Assembly (NCBI GenBank): GCA_964547365.1
Contig: CAZJMP010000001.1
Coordinates: forward strand, 1-60,728
Length of the DNA stretch: 60,728 nt
Source of the DNA: an uncultured Candidatus Peribacteria bacterium
GTDB taxonomy: Bacteria; Patescibacteriota; Gracilibacteria; Absconditabacterales; Absconditicoccaceae
Reading direction: 5' to 3'
Under the pieces are notes generated by a model. The model was not told the origin of the DNA, did not search any database, and worked only from the letters and a program-made list of their open reading frames with translations. Position 1 is the stretch's first letter. Each line of letters starts with the position of its first letter. Made by a program: the position numbers and the translations under genes. Shown in pieces: positions 4,577 through 39,291 of this stretch.

Positions 4577-5497
4577 TTATTTGTTCATGAAATACTTGCG
4601 AAGTATGAGATAGGTAATGAATGCTATAATGATGGAAAGCAATATGAAGAGAGGATAGGTGATCCTCCGATTCTCCGGTCCGGTTATCATGCTCCGTTCA
4701 GACATGCCTCCAATTCCCGCAATCACGGTCAATGGCATGAAGATAGAGTTGATGAAGGTCAATCTTGTTACACTTTTATTGCTTTTGATGCCGACAAACG
4801 TGTTGTATGCTTGCATGAGCGAATCGTTTTTTTCGGTCAACGCATTGATGGTCCTGATGATTTTTGCAAGTTTGGATTGCAGATCATTGAAATAGGTGTT
4901 TAGATGTTTCTCATGAAGCTGCTTTACGTGTTCTGTAAGCTCGTCGATAATCTCTTCTTGGGACAAGAAATTATGTTTTACAAATATCTTGTTGAGATCT
5001 TCTGTAATCAATTCATCGATCACTTCCTCTCATTTGCTGTCGATCTTTGTTTGGATATCCAGAAGTCTCTGTCATGACATCGCTAGTGATTTTATTGTCT
5101 TATCATAGAATGCATCGACAATCCTGTAGAGGATATAATATGGTGATGATTTATATGAACCATCGATAGTCTCTGCTTCTTTTTCCATCTCTTCTAGCAT
5201 CTTATTCAGCGTCTGGGATTCTAATCATGTAGTAGTGATGATAAGGTCTTGTCCTATGATTACATCCATTTCGTTGAATGTATATCTTGCTTCTTCAGGC
5301 ATATACTTGGTGAACGTCAATGCCATGAAAAAGTGATCACTGGTGGTATCGATTTTTGATTGTGCATTGATTCCCAAAATATCTTCTACGATCATTTCGT
5401 GGAAATTATGTTCTTTGGCTAGCTTATCTATCGCTTCTTTGTCAGGAGCTTGGATACATATCCATTGGGTCTTTCCGATCTGTAATGTTTTTTTCAT
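4577..5497 (-). CDS. corA: CorA-family Mg2+/Co2+ transporter (variant GMSE in place of GMNF)
   Basis: Track ORFs 5225..5497 and 4577..5023 are in frame and joined through TGA codons. YYILYRIVDAFYDK, SIFMPLTVIAGIGGMSE, two C-terminal TM helices. Confidence 0.85.
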
Positions 5498-5720
5498 ATT
5501 GTTCTTTTGGGGTAAAATTCACCTCTCATTATACTCGTAAATCTCTTTCTGTCAAATTTTGATGTGTTGACAAAATTGCAAAAAATCAGTTATCATCAGC
5601 AAAATATGCTTTTTTGATAACTCATGGTTTGCAAATACACATATTTTTTTTCTCTTGTAAATAATGATTCTATTTTTTTTCTTTTTTACCGAATAAATTC
5701 TTTTTTCCTGACCTTATTTT

Positions 5721-6868: not shown

Positions 6869-7306
6869 TTATAATTTTTTAATACATCATTTTGTGAGTT
6901 CTTCTTCTGCCTTTTTAATGGCATTCATCACGTAAAGAGCAGATGCTAGGTCCTCATTGATTTCCTTGAAGTTACCAATATCATAGTTATAGCTTGCACT
7001 ATGATGGCTAGTAGCCCATTCCCTGGAAAAAATTATGTCTAAGTAGGTATAATCAGAACCATACTTTTCCGCTCTCTCAGCAATAGAAAAGAACGGGTGG
7101 AACCCGTTTTCATCAACATTGAATACCATAATCTTATTTGTTTCGAACAAACCAACGCCAATACTTGGAATACCCTGTTGTACGAGTTCAGGGACTACCA
7201 ATTCTGCGGTTTTATACCCGTGGATGTCGATAAAAGTTGAAGAACTCTTCGTTAAATTCTCAAATGCTCCTTTGAGAATTTGTTTTACTAATTCCTGATT
7301 TCTCAT
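6869..7306 (-). CDS. Hypothetical protein (145 aa)
   Basis: Track ORF 6887..7306 ends in TGA. Under table 25 it continues six more codons (G plus CIKKL) to TAA at 6869. Confidence 0.6.
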
Positions 7307-7494
7307 TTTGTTTCTCCTATATTAGTTAATGTTTTTTATTTTGTATGCTTATATATTTTCTCTATAAAAAGTCAACCATGGTGATTTCAAAAAAATCTCT
7401 GTTCCTTATTTGAAACAAAAAAGTAGATGTCCGACAATTTGTCGCTATCTGACACATGGTAGGTTTGTGATGAATTGTGGTGGGTAAACTGACA

Positions 7495-10488
7495 TTACTT
7501 TTGTGCTCGTACTACTTTCTGTTCGCCATTGATCTCCTTGAATTCTTTGGCTTTTACCTTGATCTTGTCGCCGATGTTGTAGTATTTTTTTCGTTCAACT
7601 CCGGCTGGAGCGACGATGAAATTCTTGTGGAGCAATCCTTCGACTCCTTTGACCGTAACGAACATTCCATAGTTGTACATCAGCTTGATGTATCCATCAT
7701 ATTCCTTTCCGATCCTGATATCTTTGATGCTGAAAGTGCCGTTGTCGTGGATTATCTCTCCTTCGTATGCAGGTGTTTTGATAATAGGTTCCGCTGCTGT
7801 TGCTGTCGGTGCAGCTGCTGGAGCGATGCCTTTTATTTTTTCTAGTTTCGCGATGTTCGGACAGAATTTGAAATAATCCTGTTTTTTTGCTCCTGCTTGT
7901 TTGTAGATATCATTCAATTGTTCGAGGGCGCGTTCTTTCTTTCCTATCCGGATCATCAATGGTCCGCCATTGTTTTCTATCTGTATGGTTTGGTGCTGAT
8001 AGATATCTACATGGACAGGTATCTCTGTCTCTTTTCCGAAACTTACTTTACCGCCGATCTCGTATTTGAGATTTGCTTGATCTTCTAATCATTTTGGTTT
8101 GCCATACCGGATCGCTTTGTGTGAATAGTACTCGGTATCGAAGATAATCGCATCTGGTTCTTCGCCGTCGATAGCGAATTCCGTGAAGTATGACGCGTGT
8201 TGTTCGACAAACATATCATGTAAATTTTCTACTTCTTCTTCTGTTATTCATAATGATTCCAATCTTGCTTTCTCCATGACTTTTTCTTGGACGGAGAATG
8301 TCTTGTTTGATCGCGCTGCCATAAGTTTTTCGAGCTGTCCTCTTTCCATTGCATATCTTTGTCTTGATTGTTTCCTTACTTTATCGATCAATTCCAATGA
8401 TCCTTCTCCAAGTTTTATCGGAGGCAATGTTTTCATCGAAAATGGATCTGATGAAATACCGTCGATCATCAGTCTGGTATAGGTCGTATATTTCGGCAAA
8501 GAAATCAGATCATTGACACTTGCCATTTCTTTGAATTGTCCCGTGATGATATCTGCATCATCTTTTCCTAAGGTAAATGCAACTGTTGTACCTACATTTC
8601 CAAAGATGGCATCTTTTGTCTTTTCATCGAGCTGTGCAGTATATTGGTTGGCGACGATAAGTGCTAACTTATATTTTCTCGCTTCTGAAAGGATAGTCGC
8701 GAATGATTCTGACGCGAAATTCTGGAACTCATCGATGTAGAGATAGAACGGTCTTCTTTCATGCGCTGCGATATTCGCTCTGGACATGGCATCGATCTGG
8801 AATTTCGTTACGAGCAATGATCCGATCATATTTGCATTATCTTCTCCGATCTTTCCTTTTGAGAGATTGACGAGCAGGATTTTTCCTTCATCCATCGCAT
8901 TTCTCAGATTGAGTTTTGTTCTTGGCTGACCAAAAATATTTCTGACCAATTTGGACGAAAGGAATTGTCCGACCTTGTTGGTGATAGGACCGATCGCTTC
9001 TTCCCTCTGTTTTGGCTGCCATTTATTGAATTCGCCTGTTCGGAATTTCAGGACGACTGGATCCTTGATATATGACATCACTTCCGTGCGGAAGTTATCA
9101 TCAATAAGCATTCTCAAAATATGCATGAGTGTCGCGTTCGGATAATCTACTAGCGAAAGCGCTACATTTCTCAATATGTATTCCAATCTTGGTCACCAGC
9201 TATCGCCGAAGAGTTTCTTGAATGTGGAAACAACACCTGATGCGATCAGGTTCTTTTCTTCTTCGGTCGCTCCTTGTAGCAGATTGAATCCGATAGGGTA
9301 GTCCGTATCTCCTACGTCGAATAGGATGACATCATTGATTCTATGTGTCGGAATATGTTCCAATATATTGTCTACAAGTTCACCATGCGGATCGAGCAAT
9401 GCGAGTCCATTTCCAGCTGCCATATCGCTTTTGAGAAGGTTCTCTATGAACGTAGATTTACCGGTACCGGTTTTTCCTACGATATACATATGTCTGAATT
9501 TATCTTCTTCCTTGATTCAAAATGTTATTTTTTCTCCTCTATAATCGGTGTATCCGAGTACCGTCAATTTTTTTGGATCGGTATTTTTTGTCGTAGGCAT
9601 GTTGGTAGGATATGCTAGCTTCCTGTAAAGGGTGTATTCTAATCCTTTGACGAAATTTTCCATCGTCGGGATGTGAAAGAAATTCACCGCTTGGGAATGC
9701 ATCATGCCGTGAAATTTTTCAGATGTCTTTATTTTTATTTTTCCGTTGGAGCTGAATGGAGCGAATGCTGCTACGATATTTTTTTTGAGATTCTCTCTGG
9801 CGTATTGATCTTTGGTCATGATCTTGTAACTGAATGATCCGTAGATTTCTGGCTTTTCTTCCTTGGGTTTTTCTATCGGCGTTCCGTCAGGATTTTTCTT
9901 TTTTGGTTCTCGGATCCGTTTGAAAATAGCATTCATATGTTGCAGAAAATTCTTCTCCAATTTGAACGTATAGGTAAAATAGATATCGAGCCTGGAATTT
10001 TGATCGACCATATTGTAGAGAGAAAAAATACCGTTCATAGGATCCATGTAGGTACCGCCTCTAGTGAATTCCTCTTTGGTAAGTAAGGTCCCTTCTTTGT
10101 CGAATTGCAATCGTTCTTTTCTTTGCGCTATCGGAAACGGTTCTTTCATCTCCTGGATATCTGAAGTAGGGAAACTCGTGTAGAACGTATTCTCGAAATA
10201 GGTTTTGAAATCTCTTGGTACTCCTACATAGAGTTTGATATCTATCGCATTTCCGCTGATGATGAACTTGATGTGTTTTTTCTTGAGGCTGATGATATTT
10301 TTGCTTATAGTATCTCGATGGTTTACTCCATGATCGTTGTCCTTGAATGGTTTAATATGAAAAAAAACATAGCCCTTGCTTTGTTCTTCGGAAATTTGCG
10401 TTCCTGGTATTTTTTGGGTGATGTTTCTTGGTTTGGTTGTGGTCGCTCAGGCAAGCATTTTGCCTAGTTTCTCTGCGTGTTTTAACAT
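7495..10488 (-). CDS. VirD4/TraD-like (T4SS coupling protein-type) P-loop ATPase with a C-terminal S1 RNA/ssDNA-binding domain (997 aa)
   Basis: Four track ORFs (9517..10149, 9193..9489, 8248..9186, 7495..7959) plus 10150..10488 share one frame joined by TGA codons. Walker A GKTGTGKST, LLDPHGEL, Walker B YIDEFQNF, ARKYKLALIVANQ. C-terminal S1 fold GKEYDGYI..YGMFVTVKGVEGLLHKN..IGDKIKVK. Confidence 0.8.
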
Positions 10489-10618
10489 TTTGTTTGGGAT
10501 AGTGCTAAAGTTTCAAAGGAGATACAGTTGAAACTGGTATTTCTTTATATGTCAATATTATACATATTTTGAGATAAAAAGCAAGTATTTATAGAAGTTT
10601 GTTTTTTCTTTTTTTTAG

Positions 10619-10754
10619 CAACCTTCTCTTCGTTTCCCCTTTGACTTCGCAAAGGACAAGTCCTCCTGTCAGAGGAGACTTCAGTAAAATCACACTCCTC
10701 TCTGACAGGAGAGGTGGGGTGAGGTTGTTCGCGAAAAAGCCGAAGAGGAGGTTG
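10619..10754. ncRNA. Candidate structured RNA (14-bp closing stem enclosing three hairpins); identity unknown
   Basis: caaccttctcttcg(10619-10632) pairs with cgaagaggaggttg(10741-10754). Internal hairpins cctttg/caaagg, ctcct-gtcag-aggag and cctctc-tgacag-gagagg. Confidence 0.35.
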
Positions 10755-10785
10755 ACTACGACACTCTTTTGCTTACATTCACAGC

Positions 10786-11511
10786 ATGTATCTCTATAGC
10801 TTCGATCGTTTTTTTGGCTTTGATAAGGTGTGTCTCTTGGGAGATTCTGGTAAGAAAAAAATCAAAGCGGGTGATCTGTTGGTCTTTTGAAACCAATATT
10901 TTCTCGCGTTGGGTGACAAGATATCATTTCCTGAACAGTATGGACACTTGGAATCTGTAAAAGCCGAATTTATGTACAAACAATTTTTAACACAATCTAC
11001 GCTGGATCTTCTTCATCGGATGGTGGAGACGTACTATACGACCTACAAATCTGTGATCAGACTTTTCGTCACGAATGAGATAGAGAAACTTCTTGAGCGT
11101 GAAGGAAAACTTAAAGCTCAAAGTTCAAAGCTCAAAGTTGTTGTGCAATCTTCAAGTTTTTCTTTGGCTGTTGAAGGGCAGACATTGATTGTCTTTCCTG
11201 ATTTATGGACGATGTTTAATTCTACTACAGAAGACTTTCGTGAAAGTGACGGAGTAGCGTTTTTGTCGGCGATGCATACCGAGAAACAGAAAGATATACA
11301 TCGATGGGAGATCAAAAAGTGAATGAAATCAGTCATATTATGTACGTATGCCGAGATATTTCAGGATTATCATAATTTAAAAAAAATCATATTCATCGAT
11401 CCGCATAAGCGATATTACGCCAATCAGCAGGACCCGAGATATAAGGTGGGGGATGTGCTGGAGGAGATGAAAAAACTGTATGGAGCTGAATTAGAAATTG
11501 TCTGAGTATAA
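10786..11511 (+). CDS. Truncated PriA-like protein lacking helicase catalytic motifs (241 aa)
   Basis: Collinear with the PriA N-terminus through motif II: TLDLLHRMVETYY, QTLIVFPDL, SVILCTYAEIF..LKKIIFIDPHKRYYANQQDPRYKVGDV. No GxGKT is present and DEEH is replaced by IDPH. Track ORFs 10909..11322 and 11323..11505 are in frame. Confidence 0.6.
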
Positions 11512-12521: not shown

Positions 12522-13094
12522 ATGAGTGCATGAAGATTCCATTCTAGACGAAAAGTATATTTCCAAGGGTTGTTGGTGATATTCGGCTTATCGTTGATTA
12601 CATTCGGCTATTTCAAGGTCGATATGTTTTTGATGAATCAGAAGATAACCGATAAGCGCGTGGTGCTTGAAGATCAGACCAAACAGCTTGATTCGTATAA
12701 ACTGCTCACGGGATATAATAAATTACAGGCAGTTAAGATCTTGGAAGAAAAACAAATCACTATGCCGCGATCTGATTACATCACCAAAGTCATCCAAATG
12801 CTTGAAGATATGAAACAGGTCGATACCAGTTCCACGGATAGCATCATCCTTTCTGACTTCAATGTCAGCTTGGATAAGATTACGCTCAAAGGGCAGGTTT
12901 CCAATCTTTTGCTCTTGTATTATTCCAATGCCAATAAGGGGATTGTTTCCCTCATAGATAGGTTTTCAAGTTTGGATTTCGTCAAGAATATCCGTATCCA
13001 GACCTATGATAGAGTGAGCGAAAGCAATTTCTATGAATTCGTTTTAGAAGCTAATGTCATCAATGATGCAGGAACAGGAAACACAGCAGAATAG
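12522..13094 (+). CDS. PilN-like pilus/T2SS assembly protein
   Basis: Short cytoplasmic N-terminus, one TM helix (LLVIFGLSLITFGYF), coiled coil, C-terminal ITLKGQV..NLL..DF fold pattern typical of PilN. Sits in pilus gene context. Confidence 0.5.
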
Positions 13095-13860
13095 TCAAAT
13101 CATCGATCGTTTGCTCGGTGAACAACAGCAGAAAAAATCCGTTGAAATCGATTCGCTCGCGGAAGATTCTCAGGTATTGATCACGACGTCGAGAGTCGTC
13201 AGTATCAGATATAGGATTTATTTCGTCGTATTGTTGCTTGTCCTTGTGATTTTCGGCAATAATATTTTGTTGCCTGCGCGAGACGATTATCAATCGACCA
13301 AGATCGAGGTGAGCGATATTAATATGCAGATCACGAGTTTCGAAACAAAAAAACTTCAAGCTGATGCAGACAAAGCGTTGATCCAAAAGGTGGAGAATCA
13401 GCAAGATACGATCATCTCTTGTCTCAATACGAGGACCAATTGCAGCTCTATAGATGCATCGTTGAGGAATAACTTCTCGTTCGCGAGATCATATATCCAA
13501 CTCAATAATCTGACTGATCCGAAAATGTCCGTCAACGAGAAAGTGCTGCTTGCCAATATCAATGAGTATCTTTTGAGGGATCCTGCGACGAAAACTAAAA
13601 ACGGTGTTATCAACAAGATCGCTATAGGAGAACCTAAACAATTCTTCTGAAACCTCTACTACGTTCCGCTCAAGCTCAATATCACTTTCGATACCAAGGA
13701 TGTTCTGCTTTCTTTCATCGACAATGTGGAAAAAAGAGTCCTTGCTGATGAACATTATCGTGTCCTCTACAAGATCGACAAAGTGAATTACGATATCGCT
13801 AATTACGCTGAACAACAACAAGTTGACGTAGATTTGAATGCATATTATTATACCGACTAA
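13054..13860 (+). CDS. PilO-like membrane protein (268 aa)
   Basis: Track ORF 13054..13650 extends through TGA to TAA at 13858. One TM helix then a coiled coil. The call rests mainly on its position between pilN-like and pilC. Confidence 0.35.
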
Positions 13861-13911
13861 ATTTAGAATTTAGCAATATAAAAAATTTAGAATTTAAAAT
13901 TTAGCATATAT
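13861..13911. repeat. Heptamer repeat spacer (ATTTAGA family)
   Basis: atttaga atttagc aatataa aaaattt agaattt aaaattt agc. Confidence 0.7.
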
Positions 13912-15048
13912 ATGACAGAAACAGAAGAACAGAAAACACAAGAGTATAAACCGGGTCCGATCGATGGTATGATCGTATCTACATTGCAATCCATGGACAG
14001 AGGAAGTTTTTGAACCAAGGATAAGATTCTCTTTTTCAAGGAATTGGCATATCTCTTGAACGGAGGAGTCTCTTTAGTAGATAGTATGAATATCATCGGT
14101 GAAAGTTCAGATAACTATGCACTCAAAGAAATCTCCAGAAATATCTTGGCATTTTTGCGCAAAGGTAAAAGCTTTTCATATGCGCTCAATAGACTGCCTG
14201 ATTATTTCGATCAGGGCGATTACACCATCGTCAAGGCAGGAGAGATGTCCGGTAATCTGCCTATGATCCTGCAATCATTATCCAATGAATATGTGTATAT
14301 CAAAGAGATGAAAAATAAATATATTTGAGCATTGATGTATCCTATGATTCTTGTCGTCATTTCTATCGTAGCGGTATTCGCCTTGTTCTTGTTGGTTTTG
14401 CCTGGTATTTTCTCTATAGCGACAAGTTTCCAGAATCTCGAATTGCCATGGATTACCAGAGCTTTACATGATACTTCGGTCTTTTTCCAAACACAACGGA
14501 AACTCATGCTTGGAATTATCGCTGGATTATGACTTGTCGGTGGCGTATTCTTCTCTACTGATCTCGGAAAGAAAACTCGGTTCAGTATCTTGCTCTGAAT
14601 CCCGTTGATTGGTAAGATGACAAAATATTTCTATCTCGTAAAATTCTGCAGATATACCAAACTGATGATGGCTGCCGGCATGAATTATCTCCAGACTTTT
14701 AGTTTGCTTAGGGATATCCTCGGCATCTCTGCGTATCAGAATATGATCGAACGTGTCGTCACGGGATTGAACAAATGAGAAACCATCTATTCTACTTTAC
14801 AATATGAAACAGATCTGATTCCTTCCGATGTAGCTGTGATGATCAAGGTCGGCGAGGAAACGGCGAATCTTTCCAACTCTTTGGATAATGTCCTCAAGAT
14901 GTATGAGGAGGATCTCAATGTCCTGATCGGTCGTTCGTCCAAAATCATTGAGCCAGTTATGTTGGTCGGTGTCTGAGGCGTGATTCTTGTCATCGCATTA
15001 GGAATCTTTGGATTGATTTTGCAGATCATGGAAGGTGCAGGATTATAA
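13912..15048 (+). CDS. pilC: Type IV pilus/T2SS platform protein (GspF/PilC family)
   Basis: Two GspF repeats: FFKELAYLLNGGVSL.DSM, GD.TIVKAGEMSGNL, IEPVMLVG[V]GGVILVIAL. Track ORFs 14044.. and 14332.. are in frame. Confidence 0.9.
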
Positions 15049-15051
15049 AAT

Positions 15052-15170
15052 GAATTCAGAATGCAGAATTCAAAATTTAGAATGTAGAATTCAGAATTTA
15101 GAATGTAGAATTTAGAATGTAGAATGTAGAATTCAGAATTTAGAATTTAGAATGTAAAATTCAGAAATAG
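15052..15170. repeat. 17-unit tandem heptamer array GAAT[T/G][T/C]A
   Basis: gaattca gaatgca gaattca aaattta gaatgta gaattca gaattta gaatgta gaattta gaatgta gaatgta gaattca gaattta gaattta gaatgta aaattca gaaatag. Begins 3 nt after the pilC stop. Confidence 0.95.
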
Positions 15171-15171
15171 A

Positions 15172-15198
15172 AAAACTGTCGGTGAAGACAGTTTTTTC
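15172..15198 (+). terminator. Intrinsic terminator after pilC and the repeat array
   Basis: actgtc-ggtgaa-gacagt hairpin plus a T-run. Confidence 0.7.
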
Positions 15199-15255
15199 GT
15201 TGAAAGCGAAAGTATAATGATTACATATGCATAGTGATTTATATTCGTTTATACT

Positions 15256-15750
15256 ATGAGAAAAGCATTTACGCTTATAGAGATAGTCATCGTATTGTTG
15301 GTGATCGGCATATTGATGGGAGCGACCATGAGGTTCTGATCCAATCGTATCACGGATCTCAAGGCACAGACGATCAAAGAGCAATTCGTCGGGCGATATA
15401 ACGATCTCTATAGTCAGAATATGACCTCGAGTTTCCACAATGGACAGAAATATGAAAAGATGACCGTCGTTCTTGGACAGCCATTCTTTTATCTTTTGGA
15501 TGCGGCATCATTCACTGACTCGATTATCACGTGATATCAGCTGACCAAGTTCCGTTTCCAGCCTGAAGGAACAACTTTTACCACCGCCAATCTTGTGTTT
15601 GCTCCGTATAAGCTCTGATGCAATATCTTAGATAACGACAATCCATGAGATCGTCTTTATTTCGATTTTATCGTTCCTGAGAACGGCAAAAAATATTGTT
15701 TTGAAATTCCTTCAGAAACCTGTAAATTAATCGAAAATCGTTGTGATTAA
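15256..15750 (+). CDS. Prepilin-type (pseudo)pilin 1
   Basis: N-terminal MRKAFTLIEIVIVLLVIGIL, the prepilin cleavage/methylation motif. Confidence 0.8.
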
Positions 15751-15778
15751 TTGAAAAATTTAGTTTATGAATCCATAT

Positions 15779-16420
15779 ATGAAAAAGAAATCTGCATTTA
15801 CGTTTATAGAAGTGATCATTGCGATCTCTGTTTTTGCTGTAGGCGTGCTTGCGGTTTTGCGTCTCATCACCCAGAATCTTGTGACTTTGGATATCACGGA
15901 AGCGCGTACGACCTCCACATTCCTCGCAAAGGAATGAATAGAGCTTGTCTACAATATGAGAGATTCCAATATCCAAAAATCTTTGCCGCGGGATTGTGTC
16001 ATGTATACTGAACTTGAAACGTGAGATTGGAATGAAATAGATCCTGAACATATTTGCATGCGGTATTTTGCTTCATGAACCGAAGATAAGCAAATGCTGC
16101 AAATCTCTTTTGCACCTGAAGGATATAGCTATACCCATATTGTCGAACAATGAACATGATTCGAATCATTACGGAACGATAATAGGTTGTATTATACCAC
16201 CTGATCGATTGCAAATAAGGATTTGTTCCGATATTCCAATCTTCCTGTAGAAGGGCAGGAACCTACGACATTTGCTAGATATATTGTCTTTGATGTCGTT
16301 CGTGAATGAGACAAGATATTGCCGCCAAATAAAATCCTCAAAATAGAATCCCATGTTGCATACATGAAGGGAACAAAAACCGGTGAAATAGTCCTGGAAA
16401 GTTTTATTTGAAAATATTAG
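15779..16420 (+). CDS. Prepilin-type (pseudo)pilin 2
   Basis: MKKKSAFTFIEVIIAISVFAVGVLA. Many TGA=Gly codons. Ends in TAG. Confidence 0.75.
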
Positions 16421-16423
16421 TGC

Positions 16424-17053
16424 ATGAAAAGGAAGTGAATGACTTTGCTTGAACTCGTAATCGTGATGGCTATTCTCGGTATCCTTTTTGTATTGCTGTT
16501 GAGGACGTACAATCGGATTTCTACCATGGTGTTTCGTGTTCAACAAGAAAAGGAAGTCGCTCAGGAAATATTGCAGATATCTCAGACGGTCCAAAATCTC
16601 GCTGATAGAAATGCTATCGATTACACCAAATATTCAGGAGTAGGAAATACGTGAGAAGAAATGAGTTTAGTTTCTACTGACGGAATCACTTCTGTTCTCT
16701 ATCTCAGCGGATTGGATGGCCAAGTGACATTGTACACCACAGGCGATTGTCTTAGTCCTAGTATAGAATATGCGTTTACCGGTGCTTGATCATGATGCTC
16801 GTTGTTTGTTGATGTCTGAGGCAAAACCAGAGAACTCATCAATTCCAAGAAAGTGCTCATCAGCGAAGTCGTTTTCAAGATCATCCCTTACGCTTCTGAA
16901 CAGCAATATATAGATACAGACAATCTTTGTGCAGGAAATTATCTCCAGTGTCTCAATAGCCCATGATTCCGGATGATATTCACTGCGTATAGCGTCAATT
17001 ATTGAACTCAGCGAGCCACTCATGTGCGTGTGCCGTTCCAACAATTTTTTTAA
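16424..17053 (+). CDS. Prepilin-type (pseudo)pilin 3
   Basis: MKRK[G]MTLLELVIVMAILGIL. In frame with track ORF 16439..16654. Confidence 0.75.
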
Positions 17054-17100
17054 TGAGTTCAGAGTTTAGAATTCAGCGTGCAGAATTTAGAATCTAATAT
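17054..17100. repeat. Heptamer repeat spacer
   Basis: gttcaga gtttaga attcagc gtgcaga atttaga atctaat. Confidence 0.7.
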
Positions 17101-17107
17101 ATCTTTT

Positions 17108-18028
17108 ATGGAGAAGAAGTGAAATATCAGCATATTAGTGATCTTTGTTTTACTAGCGTCGTCGTTGCTAGGGGTTTTGTCGATGAATTTCGTGCAGCAG
17201 ATGATGAGACAATCAGCAGTCGTACATTCGTATTATAGTTCTTATTATTTGGCGAAAGCCGGCGTAGAGCTTGGATTGGCGCAGATCGTCAATCGCGGTG
17301 TGGGCTTTGAACGTGTGGTCGGTAGCGGTGATGCTGTCATGTCCGGCAATTTCCTTTGCGGAGATCGTTGTGCTTTGTCGGTATCTATTTCTGGGACATC
17401 AACGATGCTCTCCAAAGCATTCCGGCAGGGCAGCGGATGCACCTCTCCGTATGTTTTGAGCGGTGGTGATTCTGTCATCATCCCATTGTTTAGGGATGTG
17501 ACTCCATGAACGGTAGCGGATATGTTTGCATCTTGAGTTGTCTATGAAAATCTTGCTCAGATCTTCAAGAATGATTGGATATCTTTCGATACGGAATTCG
17601 GCGGTGACGTCAATTTCGGTATCCTTATCTTGTCCGGCGATGATCTTTCGGAGAACGGCATCTTTTTTCAGAAATGAAATTTAAAATCCTGACTTACCGC
17701 ATTTAGGGAGGCTTTTGAACAATATCTATGAACCATAGATTCCGGTTTGTATCCTTTGGATGCTCAACTAAAAAACAATTATGATAAATCTCGATTGGTA
17801 GATAATGGATACAAGATGTATCTTCTTATTTCCAATACTAGTTCTGCGGAAGAACAATTTTGTGCTTCTGTCGTCCAGCCACAACAAGCTCCTACGGTAT
17901 ATGTGTTGCCTACCGATAGTTTCTTTGTCAGTAGCCAAGCATCTTATGGCAATCAATATGTAGCGCTTGATGCTTCATATGCACAACCTATTCCTGGTTT
18001 CTTGTTTAGTACATATTCTTCTTTCTAG
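17108..18028 (+). CDS. PilX/GspK-like minor pilin (306 aa)
   Basis: N-terminal hydrophobic anchor ISILVIFVLLASSLLGVLSM.F..Q. Track ORFs 17138.. and 17747.. are in frame. Last gene of the pilin block. Confidence 0.55.
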
Positions 18029-35835: not shown

Positions 35836-38800
35836 TTATGCAGCAGGTGTAGCTGGTGGAGGTACTTGTATTGTAGGAGCCTGCTGTGGAGTAGGTTGAG
35901 CTGTCGGTGCTGAAACAGCTGTTTCTTCTGATCTTTTTTCCGTTATCGGTACGTGCGGTGCTTCCAATTTCGGTTGAATCGCTGCGACTTTCTCTGCTTC
36001 CGCTGCGGCTATTTTTTCCGCTTCCGTCTGTTCAGGCAGTTTAGTCTCATCCGTAGTTATGCCCAATCTCGCTTCCATCTCTGCATCTACGAATTCTCTC
36101 TTCCTTCCATATTTTTTTGCTGAATATTCTTTGAGGATAGGTACAATTTTTTTGTTCTGATAATCTTTGGTATAGATCATATTCATGCTGAATGCACGTG
36201 TAGTTGCGTTATCGATATTTAATTTGATATATGCTTTATAGTTCGCGATACCTACGATATCTTCCTGTGAAAGCACTGGTGCATATTCTTTTTCCAAGAA
36301 TTCCGCATCGGGTGCACCCACTTTGAATGATTGCATCGTACCCACGTTACCGAATACCGCTGCTTTAACATCGTTTTTTCCTCCTCCTACATCGCCCAAT
36401 CATTTTGGCGGTTCGAGCTGAGCGATATATTGGTGAGCCATGATGAGTGAAAGTCTGTATTTTCTCGCTTCTGAGAGGATATCTGCGAATGTTCCCGAAA
36501 CGAAGTTCTGGAATTCATCCACATAGAGAAAAAAGTCTTTTCTATCTTTTTCTTCCATTCTCGCTCTTGCCATTGCTGCGGTATAGATTTTTGATACGAT
36601 GATCATACCAAGCAAGTTCGCGTTCAATTCACCGATCTTACCTTTGCTGAGATTGATGATGAGAACTTTTTTGTTGTCCATCACGTCTTCAAATTTGAAA
36701 GCTGATTTTGTCTGTCCGATGATGTTCCTGATCAATCTATTCGTATTGAACGATACAAATTTTGCTGAGAAGTATGGGATGATCTCTTGTTTCTCTCTGT
36801 CTCCCATAGCATTGAATGTTCTATCCCGCCGATTCTTTACGGTAGGGTTCGTTATCTTTTTGATCTTGTATTCCCTATATCATTCATCCGTGAAGAGTCT
36901 TACAACATCCAAAAGCGTCGGTCTGTCCTCGAAGTCTTCAAGTAGTGTCAGTGATCAGTATTTGAAATATTCTTGCAATCTCGGACCGAAGATCTCTGGT
37001 CAGAACATTTTGATGAATATTTCTGTGGCATCATTGACGACTCTATCTGCCTCATCTAAGATATTGATTTCAAACATATTCAATCCCATAGGTCTTTCTT
37101 CATCGCCTGCATCAAAATAAATCACGTCTTTTGCTCTCTCTTTTGGAATATATGCCAGCATATCTTCCGCGAGATCTCCATGCGGATCTATTAGACAAAT
37201 TCCATCTCCATTTCGTATATCTTGTCTCGCTATCGTCTGCAAAAATACGGATTTTCAGGTACCTGATTTTCCTATACAGTAATGATGTCTCATCCTATCA
37301 TCTCTTTTCATATAGACGGGTGAGAGCGTATTTCTGAAGATATTCGTTCCTATGAGGATCGCATCTTTGAAAAGCTTATATCCTAGACCTTTTTTTTGTA
37401 CTACCGTTTTTACGAATTTCTTTCCATCTTTTTCGATGATCTCTTTCCCGATGAGATCTTTTTCTGTATATTTCTCTATCGGATCAAGAATTTCTTCGTT
37501 GCGCATTATTTCGCCGGTTGCTCGATGCTTGCTGTATTCCTGGAGAATGATATCAAGTTTACCTCATTTGTAACTTTCTGCCAATACTCCTCACATAACA
37601 TAACCATTCGCTTCTTTAGGAATAGGAAGATTCTCAGGAGCAGGAAGTACCTTGTATTGCATCCAAGAAATGATAGGAGAACGGTTATATGTTGCATCAG
37701 GGAAATGAAATAATGATGTGAGTTCGTTTATTCCGAAAGTGTTTTTTTTGAATCAGAATCTTGTGATGAAATTATTTACTGCAACTTTCCATAATGGTTT
37801 CAAAAGCCATCAGAATAAGTCTGTTTTTCCTTGCGGTTCTATCAATTCATTTCCGTATTCGTCTCCGTAGATGGTTAACGAACTTACCACTAAATCCATA
37901 TTCTTCTCTAGATTTTCCTTTTCGTCGGAACTTGTGGTGATCAACATTCATGAATTGAAAAACGGTAGTGCTGATTCCTCTCCCATTGCATTGAGATAGT
38001 CTTCTTTTGCTTTGACCATACGCACCATGGTTACCGTTTCTTCTTCTTTCTTGTTGCTCAAGAGTTTTTCGCTCGGTCCATGGATGAGAAATCCTATGAG
38101 TTTCCATGGCATGATAAAATATGTCCATCGTGCATTGCTTGTTCCGCGAAGAGAAAGGTTCTTGTAAAGTCTATCTACTGCTTTTTGTGATTTTTTATTG
38201 AATCGATCTCCCAATGGTTTGATTGGAATGATAATGCTTAGGGTGTCATATCTTGAAATCTTTCCGATAGAATCGATGATATTGTTCATCGGATCATCCG
38301 GCTGCTGTTTGAAAGTCTTGATGTTGTAGAGCTGGTCTCTTTTTGGTTCTATAGGTATCACATCTGTATATCTTTTTTTGAAAAATTTTGGTTTGCTTGT
38401 CCTTTCTATCGAGCAATTAGGGAATTGCGCTGAAATAGCTCCTTCTAGCACTTGTTGATATTCTGGATACGTTCCTATGATAAAGTTGAGCTGTCATTCT
38501 TCATAATGGTAAATCATTGTCGTTTTCGGTTTATCGAAAATCTTTCTCATCAGATTCTCTTTCATGCTAAGTGCTCAGATTTTATGAAAATTGTGAAATA
38601 CCAACGCCATACGTCATATTTTTTCTTTCATGTCTTTTGCTAATTCTTTTTCTTGTTCACGGTCTAGTTTGCTTTGTCCTCTTGGAAGCAATATCTTGAG
38701 ATAAATAATCCTTCACGAATTGAAAACGTCGTAGAAGAATCTCAGCATATTCTTGATGATAATAAGCAATATGAGTGTCCCTATTGTAATCAATACTCCG

Positions 38801-39150
38801 TTTAGCGCGTATTGTCCGTATTCTGTCACTATTGCTTTCCGTCCTGTTTCTGTGCTAGTACTTGCTGTCACTTGTGTTTCTTTTTGGTCTTTTTCGCTTG
38901 GTGTGGTTGTGAATCACGGTCCTGTCGTACTTACTGGAGGAGTATAGTTTTTATGTAATAGGAAATTCTTGATTTGTGTCGTACCTCCCATGAGTTGCAT
39001 ACAAGTAAGTTTATTGGTCCCTCGTGCATTGCTGGTCAATTGAGAAATATTCTCCAAGGCTGCTGGATTTTTATTGTATGCGTTCTGTATCTGTTGCTCA
39101 CACATTCCTAATTCCATACTTTGTTTAGCTGAAAGATTAAAGCCCGCCAT
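35836..39150 (-). CDS. VirD4/TraD-like coupling-type P-loop ATPase, membrane-anchored paralog (about 1104 aa)
   Basis: Seven track ORFs between 35836 and 39201 lie in one frame. TM helix NGVLITIGTLILLIII, YLKILLPRG.. N-domain, GKSGTGKS-type P-loop region, LIDPHGDL, YVDEFQNF, ARKYRLSLIMAHQ. Pro/Ala/Gln-rich tail. ATG at 39150 (alternative TTG at 39201). Confidence 0.75.
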
Positions 39151-39291
39151 GGCGGATAAACTTTTAAGCTTCAAGCTTGTGGCTTTTGGCTTATCAGTCA
39201 ATTATAGCCGGAAAAACTTCTTTTGTATAAAAAAAATGGCTTTTGGATGCTTGATCTAGGCCATTTTTTGTAAAATAGTATATAATAATGG

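What the first reader, a model, noticed from the sequence alone, without database searches (positions are those of the whole stretch)
7495..10488. VirD4/TraD-like coupling ATPase fused to a C-terminal S1 nucleic-acid-binding domain
Under table 25, five ORF fragments merge into one 997-aa protein. It has a T4SS-coupling-protein-type ATPase core (GKTGTGKST, LLDPHGEL, DEFQNF, ARKYKLALIVANQ) and lacks the N-terminal TM anchor seen in the paralog at 35836-39150. After an Ala/Pro linker it ends in a clear S1/OB fold (GKEYDGYI..YGMFVTVKGVEGLLHKN..IGDKIKVK). I do not know of an S1 domain on a coupling-type translocase. It would give the motor its own ssDNA/RNA-binding module, which is plausible for DNA uptake or export in an episymbiotic CPR cell that also encodes a pilus system nearby (12522-18028).
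Basis: partly seen in the sequence, partly recalled or inferred. Interest (0 to 1): 0.65.

Follow-up and report, generated by a model that had tools for sequence, protein, structure and literature searches.

The report
Anchorless coupling-type ATPase with S1 tail
This is one real, intact gene of an SR1/Absconditabacteria bacterium: a motor ATPase of the kind that feeds DNA into conjugation machines, which in this whole order has lost its membrane anchors and gained an S1 nucleic-acid-binding tail, and nobody has studied it.

Summary
Window 7495-10488 (-) is one 997-codon gene once TGA is read as Gly. CGA and CGG must also be read as Trp, which changes 10 residues that table 25 gives as Arg.

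The protein has these parts:
- a short amphipathic N-helix;
- an uncatalogued N-domain;
- a TrwB/VirD4-type ATPase with an all-alpha insert;
- a confidently folded 150-aa middle domain with no known relative;
- a disordered linker;
- a bona fide S1 domain.

It is the reciprocal-best ortholog of a membrane-anchored coupling-protein-like ATPase found in 151 of 151 sampled CPR genomes. In its own order (SR1/Absconditabacterales), at least 119 of 121 genomes carry the S1 tail. There the N-terminal TM helix and an internal hydrophobic hairpin are gone. Within the family S1 is as conserved as the motor (76% against about 80%).

The gene is monocistronic, has no conserved neighbours, and is not linked to T4SS or relaxase genes.

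Most likely function (inferred, not shown): a ring ATPase that works on single-stranded nucleic acid captured by flexibly tethered S1 domains. Whether the substrate is RNA or ssDNA, and whether the motor still docks at the membrane, remains open.

Verdict: a new variant of a known kind, of moderate to high interest.

The parts
7495..10488 (-). Whole CDS, 997 codons plus stop, read with TGA=Gly and CGA/CGG=Trp (protein P0122)
   Evidence: Full-length homologs.
10447..10488 (-). aa 1-14, MLKHAEKLGKMLAG: conserved amphipathic N-terminal helix. It stands where orthologs elsewhere in CPR have a TM helix.
   Evidence: Hydrophobic moment 0.52, above the 95th percentile of the protein's own 14-mers, and conserved in many family members. 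A role in docking is inferred.
10375..10446 (-). aa 15-38: variable low-complexity linker
   Evidence: 15% mean pairwise identity; pLDDT below 50.
9589..10374 (-). aa 39-300: N-domain with motifs IKPFKDN..G and FFHIPT. It is homologous to the N-domain of the membrane-anchored CPR orthologs, but their internal hydrophobic hairpin is replaced by a K/E-rich loop (about aa 193-212).
   Evidence: Alignment A4. No Pfam family. No similarity to the genome's own VirB4-like N-domain by hhalign, probability 0.3%.
8284..9588 (-). aa 301-735: TrwB/VirD4-type P-loop ATPase core (nucleotide-binding domain plus TraG-D_C region)
   Evidence: Pfam. phrog_5156 at 5.9e-64. Foldseek matches to TrwB, DotL, Cag-beta and HerA. 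78-81% identity within the family and about 50% across CPR.
9451..9477 (-). Walker A, GKTGTGKST (aa 338-346)
   Evidence: G338 K339 G341 G343 K344 S345 are invariant across CPR orthologs and the in-window paralog (A2); K339, T340, T342, K344 and S345 are also invariant within the family (A1).
8884..9276 (-). aa 405-535: all-alpha domain inserted in the ATPase, as in T4CPs
   Evidence: Seven predicted helices between 409 and 519. TrwB_AAD_bind covers profile positions 12-330 in orthologs.
8716..8745 (-). Walker B region, YLYIDEFQNF (aa 582-591)
   Evidence: D586 E587 F588 Q589 N590 F591 invariant.
7819..8268 (-). aa 741-890: middle domain (short helices, a 7-stranded beta region, a long helix), unknown fold family. 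Present in only part of the order.
   Evidence: AF2 pLDDT 78-97 over the 10-residue blocks (86 or more in all but one). No PDB or BFVD match and no Pfam family. Distribution.
7738..7818 (-). aa 891-917: disordered Ala/Pro/Thr-rich tether
   Evidence: pLDDT below 50. 12% identity and variable length.
7498..7737 (-). aa 918-997: S1 (OB-fold) domain with the YG(M)FV...GVEGLLH signature
   Evidence: Pfam S1, 26.3 bits against a cut-off of 22. bS1 at E=1.1e-13. Foldseek returns S1 domains only, probability about 1.0 and rmsd about 3 A. 76% identity within the family.
10557..10562 (-). Candidate -10 hexamer TATAAT, 69 nt upstream of the ATG
   Evidence: Read directly from the sequence. No matching -35; not validated.

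Best explanation
The gene encodes a soluble or at most peripherally attached ring ATPase of the type IV coupling protein (TrwB/VirD4) lineage.

It is the Absconditabacterales ortholog of a membrane-anchored T4CP-like protein that every sampled CPR genome carries. At the base of this order the protein:
- lost its N-terminal TM helix;
- lost an internal hydrophobic hairpin;
- exchanged a Lys/Glu-rich C-terminal tail for a flexibly tethered S1 domain, with an extra 150-aa domain in some genera.

Proposed mechanism:
- The protein forms a hexamer, like TrwB.
- The six S1 domains, on disordered tethers of roughly 25-60 residues, capture single-stranded nucleic acid.
- They hand the strand to the ATP-driven ring, which translocates or remodels it.

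Shown here: gene integrity, domain content, orthology, loss of the anchors, conservation, and an intact S1 signature.

Inferred: the hexamer, nucleic-acid binding, the nature of the substrate (RNA or ssDNA), and any docking to a membrane partner through the N-terminal amphipathic helix or the TM-anchored paralogs.
For: ATPase of T4CP type:
- Pfam TrwB_AAD_bind, TraG-D_C and DUF87 match over their cut-offs, and over longer stretches in orthologs.
- Foldseek finds TrwB with TM-score 0.46-0.51 normalised to the target, plus DotL and Cag-beta.
- Walker A and B residues are invariant.

Orthology:
- The TM-anchored proteins of three standard-code CPR genomes have this gene as their best hit in the window's genome, 496-525 bits against 370-384 for the next paralog.
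- The core is found in 151 of 151 genomes at about 45-54% identity.

Anchor loss:
- No TM segment here, against an N-terminal TM helix or an internal TM pair in orthologs.
- The internal hydrophobic segment is deleted.

S1 domain:
- Supported.
- Present in at least 119 of 121 genomes of the order, 37 of 37 genera, and contiguous with the ATPase in every case checked.
- Absent from other code-25 families and from standard-code CPR.
- As conserved as the motor, 0.76 against 0.78-0.81, while the linkers are at 0.12-0.15.
- This S1 subtype occurs only in this family among 1.84 billion representatives and in the tail-only search.

Background:
- TrwB-type T4CPs are DNA-dependent hexameric ATPases (established knowledge of the family; structures 1e9r and 1gki were hit).
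- The S1 domains of bS1 D3-D5 bind single-stranded RNA (established knowledge).
- Most CPR T4CP homologs are orphans away from virB4, and exaptation has been suggested (10.1101/2025.01.22.634366).
Against: - There is no experimental or expression data. No RNA runs hold the gene.
- No conserved neighbour points to a pathway.
- S1 domains can also mediate protein contacts, as bS1 D1-D2 do.
- The S1 part of the AF2 model is only moderately confident, pLDDT 50-82 over its 10-residue blocks. The full-length model is poor, pLDDT 59.
- The oligomeric state was not tested.
- The T4CP homolog of Southlakia is reported as non-essential, so the ancestral job is unknown.
Confidence: 0.6

Rival explanations
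1. It is still a working T4SS coupling protein. It docks on the CPR T4SS (VirB4-like and partners) or on a TM-anchored paralog. It uses S1 in place of a relaxosome to recognise ssDNA or RNA for export to, or import from, the host cell.
For: - The genome has a VirB4-like gene (C13, 86.9 bits) and two TM-anchored paralogs (C73 and window 35836-39201).
- The N-terminal amphipathic helix could serve as a docking peptide.
- CPR T4SSs lack relaxases.
- CPR bacteria must scavenge nucleotides.
Against: - The gene is not linked to virB4 or any T4SS gene in any of seven genomes examined.
- Both membrane-embedding segments that T4CPs use to sit on the channel were lost.
- Curated T4CP family cut-offs are far from met, 40 bits against 250.
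- The T4CP homolog is dispensable where the T4SS is essential.
Confidence: 0.2
2. It is an RNA-directed cytoplasmic motor: a T4CP ring exapted for RNA work such as remodelling, feeding RNA to decay enzymes, or Rho-like release of transcripts. The S1 domain would act as the primary RNA-loading site, by analogy with the OB fold plus ring ATPase layout of Rho.
For: - S1 is closest to the mRNA-binding domains D3-D5 of bS1 and to S1 domains of RNase R, DHX8, Tex and PNPase.
- The protein is soluble.
- In RAAC1_SR1_1 and one further genome the gene lies among housekeeping genes (rplJ/rplL, rpsB; plus nusA in the second).
- TGA density is lowish, at the 17th percentile.
- Rho is over its cut-off in only 1 of 101 genomes of the class.
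Against: - Rho is missing throughout CPR, not only where S1 was gained, so there is no complementary pattern.
- The motor family is known for DNA, not RNA.
- No RNase or transcription partner is linked to the gene.
Confidence: 0.15
3. It is an artefact or a decaying gene: two genes (an ATPase and a small S1 protein) joined by wrongly reading stops, or a pseudogene.
For: Under table 11 the frame is split by five TGA.
Against: - A tRNA(UCA) resembling tRNA-Gly is present.
- At three of the five TGA sites (G324, G432, G747) relatives have Gly or nothing else, the W there being table-4 readings of their own TGA; G14 is mostly so and G800 lies in a variable column.
- The architecture is intact in at least 119 of 121 genomes.
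- One ortholog has no TGA at all.
- No stop or start separates the S1 part.
- S1 is under strong purifying constraint.
- Unitigs agree with the assembly.
Confidence: 0.01
4. It is a chromosome-handling or repair ATPase (FtsK-like or HerA-like), or a component of a defence system.
For: - DUF87/HerA and FtsK_SpoIIIE profiles touch the P-loop region.
- HerA is the top Foldseek hit.
- PADLOC gives mad8 at 57.9 bits and weak HerA models.
Against: - Those matches cover mainly the P-loop. The FtsK score of 23.7 is below the cut-off of 24.
- Genuine FtsK genes exist elsewhere in the genome.
- No NurA, Sir2 or other defence partners are adjacent.
- The HerA alignment is poor, rmsd 18 A.
- An all-alpha insert is typical of T4CPs, not of HerA.
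Confidence: 0.04

Closest known systems
Type IV coupling proteins (TrwB of R388, VirD4, TraD, TraG, DotL, Cag-beta)
   Same: - P-loop nucleotide-binding domain with an inserted all-alpha domain and a TraG-D_C region.
- Walker A and B motifs.
- Fold match to TrwB, DotL and Cag-beta.
   Different: - No transmembrane domain.
- A 260-aa uncatalogued N-domain.
- A C-terminal S1 domain.
- No linkage to T4SS or relaxase genes.
- A chromosomal, order-wide, single-copy core gene.
- Curated T4CP model cut-offs are not reached.
Orphan VirD4-like T4CP homologs of Patescibacteria/CPR (Quinonero-Coronel et al., 10.1101/2025.01.22.634366)
   Same: - Same orthologous group by reciprocal best hit.
- About 50% identity over the motor.
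- Shared N-domain motifs.
- Encoded away from virB4.
   Different: Those proteins have an N-terminal TM helix and/or an internal hydrophobic hairpin, and a Lys/Glu-rich tail. This order's protein has neither anchor and carries S1, with or without the middle domain.
S1 domains of ribosomal protein bS1 (domains 3-5), PNPase, RNase R, Tex, YabR/GSP13
   Same: - OB-fold sequence signature YG.FV...G.(E/D)GL(L/V)H.
- Pfam S1 over its cut-off, and a structural match.
   Different: A single copy at the end of a ring-ATPase. The subtype is found nowhere else. It is about 40% identical to a repeat of the genome's own bS1-like protein.
Transcription terminator Rho (analogy only)
   Same: Layout of an OB-fold single-strand-binding module plus a hexameric RecA-like motor. 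This is a resemblance of design, not of descent.
   Different: - A different ATPase family.
- The OB fold is N-terminal in Rho and C-terminal and tethered here.
- There is no evidence of a role in transcription.
PHROG phrog_5156 and phage homologs (Bacillus phage G gp156, SPO1 gp27.4)
   Same: The motor and the pre-motor segment are related: 5.9e-64 to the profile, and 23-27% identity to the phage proteins.
   Different: The listed phage hits match no further than about residue 720, so they show no S1 tail. Their function is unknown as well.

Membership tests
Type IV coupling protein (VirD4/TrwB/TraD/TraG) | FtsK/HerA-superfamily P-loop NBD with Walker A and Walker B | tested here: met
   GKTGTGKST and YLYIDEFQNF are invariant. 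Pfam TrwB_AAD_bind scores 30.3 bits against 20.5.
Type IV coupling protein (VirD4/TrwB/TraD/TraG) | All-alpha domain inserted in the NBD | tested here: met
   Helical block at aa 409-519 in the AF2 model. The TrwB_AAD_bind profile is covered at positions 12-330 in orthologs. TrwB TM-score is 0.46-0.51. The model itself is of low confidence.
Type IV coupling protein (VirD4/TrwB/TraD/TraG) | N-terminal transmembrane domain anchoring the hexamer at the channel | tested here: not met
   The maximum 19-mer hydropathy is 1.05. Orthologs elsewhere reach 1.9-2.8. The internal hydrophobic hairpin is deleted.
Type IV coupling protein (VirD4/TrwB/TraD/TraG) | Genetic association with T4SS (VirB4 etc.) and/or a relaxase | tested here: not met
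   Neighbourhoods in seven genomes hold no T4SS or relaxase gene. The VirB4-like gene lies on another contig.
Type IV coupling protein (VirD4/TrwB/TraD/TraG) | Reaches the curated NCBIfam cut-off of a T4CP family | tested here: not met
   conju_CD1115 scores 40.1 against 250, SXT_TraD 27.4 against 366, and TraD_Ftype 20.6 against 521.
Type IV coupling protein (VirD4/TrwB/TraD/TraG) | Hexameric ring; DNA-dependent ATPase; substrate delivery to a T4SS | not testable with these tools
   This needs biochemistry or multimer modelling.
S1 domain (PF00575) | Profile score over Pfam's gathering threshold | tested here: met
   26.3 bits against 22 here. Orthologs score 34.9, 29.1 and 26.2.
S1 domain (PF00575) | Five-stranded OB fold | tested here: met
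   The tail model has pLDDT 50-82 over its blocks in this part. Nearly all of the best 50 Foldseek matches are S1 or S1-like OB domains, at probability 0.97-1.0 and rmsd about 3 A over about 75 columns. E-values are weak (0.015-0.1), as expected for a 75-aa domain.
S1 domain (PF00575) | Conserved aromatic and His residues of the nucleic-acid-binding face (YG.FV, GLLH) | tested here: met
   Y940, F943 and H954 are invariant in the family and align with DYGAFV...GLLH of bS1 D3. Actual binding was not tested.
HerA (DUF87, PF01935) | HerA-type ATPase with an N-terminal HAS barrel and a NurA or other partner | tested here: inconclusive
   DUF87 is over its cut-off but covers only aa 331-371 here. 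HerA is the top fold hit, with rmsd 18 A. No HAS barrel or partner was identified.
FtsK/SpoIIIE (PF01580) | Profile over the cut-off; alpha, beta and gamma domains | tested here: not met
   23.7 bits against 24, at the P-loop only. True FtsK genes lie on C39 and C130.

The most novel reading that the evidence does not exclude
The CPR-wide 'orphan coupling protein' is not a secretion component at all but a nucleic-acid ring motor. In Absconditabacterales it has become a free cytoplasmic RNA translocase. Six tethered S1 domains would load single-stranded RNA into a T4CP-type ring, a design convergent with Rho, in a radiation where Rho is essentially absent (1 of 101 genomes). If so, this would be the first RNA-directed member of the VirD4/TrwB lineage.
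Probability: 0.15. Interest if true: 0.85.

Novelty: new variant of a known kind. Interest (0 to 1): 0.6.

Why it matters
CPR/Patescibacteria genomes carry about two coupling-protein homologs each. Nearly all are encoded away from any T4SS, and their function is unknown and debated (10.1101/2025.01.22.634366).

This order offers a natural experiment on one of them. The membrane anchors were removed and a dedicated single-strand nucleic-acid binder was added, and the result has been kept in essentially every genome.

That argues that the cargo or substrate of the whole orthologous group is nucleic acid. It also provides a soluble, expressible version for biochemistry and cryo-EM.

There is a practical point too. 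Table 25 alone mistranslates this protein, and roughly two thirds of the Trp codons in a crude set of 626 long ORFs of this genome, because CGA and CGG are Trp. Any recombinant work must recode both TGA and CGA/CGG.

Tried and rejected
1. Full-length AF2 on 26 close homologs gave pLDDT 59. It was usable only for coarse fold matching.
2. A link between the N-domain and a VirB4 N-domain (an earlier scan idea) was tested by hhalign against the genome's own VirB4-like protein. Probability was 0.3%, so there is no support. The N-domain and the middle domain have no Pfam family.
3. A phyletic complement with Rho was tested. Rho is absent almost everywhere in the class, so its absence does not track the gain of S1.
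4. FtsK replacement was rejected because FtsK is present.
5. A defence system was rejected. PADLOC gives only superfamily-level hits and no partner genes.
6. No conserved operon partner was found; the neighbourhoods differ. The T2SSF...ATPase...CorA order is shared only with one close relative.
7. Rfam finds nothing in 7200-11000.
8. The promoter and terminator scans gave no convincing signal for this gene.
9. No RNA-seq run holds the gene.
10. Foldseek against BFVD returned only S1 proteins, plus one 966-aa 'gcode 4' phage-binned protein that is probably a family member.
11. Phage and plasmid databases were searched. None of the listed best hits matches beyond residue 762, so none shows an S1 tail.
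Full report
**1. Observation**

Under table 11 the minus strand of 7495-10488 is a string of fragments. Under table 25 it is a single 997-codon frame with five in-frame TGA, at G14, G324, G432, G747 and G800.

The 1.2-Mb, 38% GC genome that holds the window has a tRNA with anticodon UCA. Its sequence is closest to the tRNA-Gly genes.

At three of the five TGA sites (G324, G432, G747), relatives have only Gly or 'W'. The W residues are table-4 translations of their own TGA. At G14 Gly and W predominate, and G800 lies in a variable column.

Unitigs from a bioreactor metagenome lie over four of the five TGA sites with no differences. The fifth (8089-8091) has depth but no listed piece. No insertion or deletion is reported inside the gene.

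**2. A correction to the code**

In an alignment of 26 full-length homologs, the 10 CGA/CGG codons of this gene behave differently from the other Arg codons.
- They fall almost entirely in columns that alternate W and R and never hold K; at two (W126, W191) Tyr is as common or commoner.
- The AGA, AGG and CGC codons fall in R/K columns.
- The two TGG codons also sit in W/R columns.

The tRNA(CCG) shares its acceptor stem with tRNA-Trp(CCA).

This is the CGA/CGG-to-Trp reassignment that Shulgina and Eddy predicted for Absconditabacteria (PMC8629427).

The corrected protein (P0122) has Trp at positions 58, 126, 191, 193, 483, 726, 794, 847, 966 and 994.

In a crude gene set of this genome, CGA plus CGG (2334 codons) outnumber TGG (1149) two to one.

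**3. Domain anatomy**

Pfam gives the following matches over their gathering scores:
- DUF87/HerA;
- TrwB_AAD_bind;
- TraG-D_C;
- S1 at residues 925-983, 26.3 bits against a cut-off of 22.

NCBIfam gives only sub-threshold hits to T4CP families and to bS1. PHROGs gives a strong match (5.9e-64) of aa 307-739 to phrog_5156, a family of unknown function.

PDB sequence search finds bS1 and TrwB. The isolated tail hits E. coli bS1 domains 3-5 at E=1.1e-13, with the YG.FV...GLLH signature aligned.

The full-length AF2 model is poor, pLDDT 59. It still finds HerA, TrwB (TM-score 0.46-0.51 normalised to the target), DotL, Cag-beta and VirB4.

A second model of aa 741-997 is good, mean pLDDT 79.9.
- A 150-aa middle domain reaches pLDDT of 86 or more in all but one 10-residue block, mostly 89-97.
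- A disordered tether follows.
- The last part is an OB fold. Nearly all of its best PDB matches are S1 or S1-like OB domains: DHX8, bS1 D3/D4/D6, YabR, RNase R, GSP13, Tex, eIF2-alpha and PNPase.

The middle domain matches nothing in PDB, BFVD or Pfam.

Hydropathy shows no TM segment. The first 14 residues form a conserved, strongly amphipathic helix.

**4. Relatives and distribution**

More than 7,400 database proteins match. The best 120 are 920-1030 aa, 53-92% identical and cover the whole length. Their source names are SR1, Absconditabacterales, 'Gracilibacteria' and 'Peribacteria'.

One of them (P0043, 993 aa) has no TGA and reads as one ORF in the standard code. That settles that the motor and S1 are one polypeptide.

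Whole-genome searches give these results.
- The motor (aa about 265-740) is found in 151 of 151 genomes sampled across the class, at about 45-54% identity. Genomes that use the standard code are included.
- The tail is found in the window's own order. All 121 genomes sampled there belong to one family, which includes RAAC1_SR1_1.
- A tail match was found in 120 of those 121. One of the 120 is only the bS1 paralog, so at least 119 carry the true tail. The count is 79 of 79 high-quality genomes and 37 of 37 genera.
- The S1 part is always kept. The middle domain is found in only some genera.
- In every case checked, the tail lies contiguous with the ATPase.

Orthologs from other code-25 families and from standard-code CPR have no S1. 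They end in Lys/Glu-rich tails.

Three standard-code orthologs have this gene as their best hit in the window's genome, 496-525 bits against 370-384 for the next paralog. This gene is therefore the ortholog of the CPR-wide protein.

Those orthologs carry an N-terminal TM helix or an internal TM pair. The N-domain alignment shows an internal hydrophobic hairpin in them. Here that hairpin is replaced by a K/E-rich loop.

Within the family, mean pairwise identity by region is as follows:

| Region | Mean pairwise identity |
|---|---|
| Motor | 0.78-0.81 |
| S1 | 0.76 |
| N-domain | 0.47 |
| Middle domain | 0.40 |
| Linkers | 0.12-0.15 |

A search of 1.84 billion cluster representatives with S1 alone finds this subtype only at the C-terminus of this ATPase family, or in its table-11 fragments. 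Everything else it finds is a multi-S1 protein of bS1 type. The tail-only homolog search agrees.

Phage and plasmid homologs share only the motor.

**5. Surroundings**

The gene is monocistronic.
- Downstream on the same strand lie a 145-aa ORF with no family and, further on, CorA.
- Upstream and divergent lie an unassigned ORF and then a pilus block that includes PilC/T2SSF.

Neighbourhoods in six other genomes differ. They include ribosomal genes, NusA, a CNNM transporter and others. Only one close relative keeps the order T2SSF...ATPase...CorA. None has T4SS or relaxase genes.

The window's genome also has:
- three paralogous motors, one soluble (C45) and two TM-anchored (C73 and window 35836-39201);
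- a VirB4-like gene;
- FtsK;
- a four-repeat bS1-like protein. One of its repeats is about 40% identical to the tail S1.

TGA density in the gene is 0.50 per 100 codons, the 17th percentile of the genome.

**6. Interpretation**

The evidence supports a T4CP-lineage ring ATPase that was freed from the membrane and equipped with a tethered single-strand binder.

The strict conservation of S1, equal to that of the motor, says S1 is integral to the job.

S1 stands where orthologs carry a Lys/Glu-rich tail. That would fit nucleic acid being the substrate of the whole orthologous group, but this is inference.

I commit to 'an ATP-driven ring motor acting on single-stranded nucleic acid captured by S1' at about 0.6.

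I cannot decide the following:
- whether the substrate is RNA or ssDNA;
- whether the motor works free in the cytoplasm, or docks at a channel or a TM-anchored paralog through its N-terminal amphipathic helix.

The rivals are set out separately in this report.

Membership in the canonical T4CP family fails on three counts: the TM domain, the genetic context and the curated thresholds. It should therefore be called T4CP-like, not a coupling protein.

**7. Literature**

- CPR T4CP homologs are known as abundant orphans, 5,713 in 2,918 genomes with only 148 near virB4. The homolog in Southlakia is non-essential, and exaptation has been suggested (10.1101/2025.01.22.634366).
- The T4SS review PMC12857230 gives the same picture.
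- No paper found in three searches mentions an S1 fusion or this family.

**8. Verdict**

This is a new variant of a known kind, with interest 0.6.

Noticed in passing
whole genome; in this gene codons 58, 126, 191, 193, 483, 726, 794, 847, 966, 994: CGA and CGG are read as Trp. In a crude set of 626 long ORFs, CGA plus CGG (2334) outnumber TGG (1149) about 2:1. That is a more advanced stage of the reassignment than most genomes described in PMC8629427. tRNA(CCG) on contig C57 shares its acceptor stem with tRNA-Trp(CCA) on C52. Table 25 alone mistranslates this genome.
   Followed up: partly
window 7819-8268 (-), aa 741-890: A 150-aa domain between the motor and S1 is predicted with very high confidence, pLDDT 86 or more in all but one 10-residue block. 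It has no match in PDB, BFVD or Pfam. It is present in only some genera of the order.
   Followed up: partly
window 9853-9912 (-), aa ~193-212, compared with L002, L004, L005, L010-L012: The membrane-anchored CPR orthologs carry an internal hydrophobic hairpin in the N-domain. In this order it is cleanly replaced by a Lys/Glu/Pro-rich loop. This is a second, independent loss of membrane contact.
   Followed up: yes
class-wide genome sample: A bona fide Rho (TIGR00767 over its cut-off) was found in only 1 of 101 sampled genomes of the class. All other hits look like cross-matches to unrelated ATPases of about 470 aa, possibly ATP synthase subunits; I did not check.
   Followed up: no
L017 6001-8982 (ortholog P0043): This 993-codon ortholog contains no TGA codon, although neighbouring genes on the contig are shredded by table-11 gene calling. 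In the window's genome the gene is also TGA-poor, at the 17th percentile. This may reflect high expression or strong constraint.
   Followed up: partly
window 4577-5602 (-) CorA; L016 8928-10211 CNNM/CBS/CorC; L020 9519-10445 CorA: A Mg2+/metal transporter gene lies within 0-3 kb downstream of the ATPase gene in three of seven genomes, from two unrelated transporter families. This is probably coincidence.
   Followed up: no
window 10619-10754 and 10557-10562: The multi-hairpin element flagged by another reader lies upstream of a perfect TATAAT hexamer, which sits 69 nt before this gene's ATG. If that hexamer is the promoter, the element is probably outside this gene's 5' UTR. Rfam finds nothing here.
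   Followed up: no
genome contig C45:1555-3771 (-): A fourth paralog of the motor (757 aa) also lacks any TM segment. This genome therefore has two soluble and two anchored T4CP-like ATPases.
   Followed up: partly
genome contig C130:71-493: One of the two FtsK-like hits has no TGA in a 523-aa open frame. It may come from a contaminating standard-code organism, since contamination of the bin is 6.3%.
   Followed up: no
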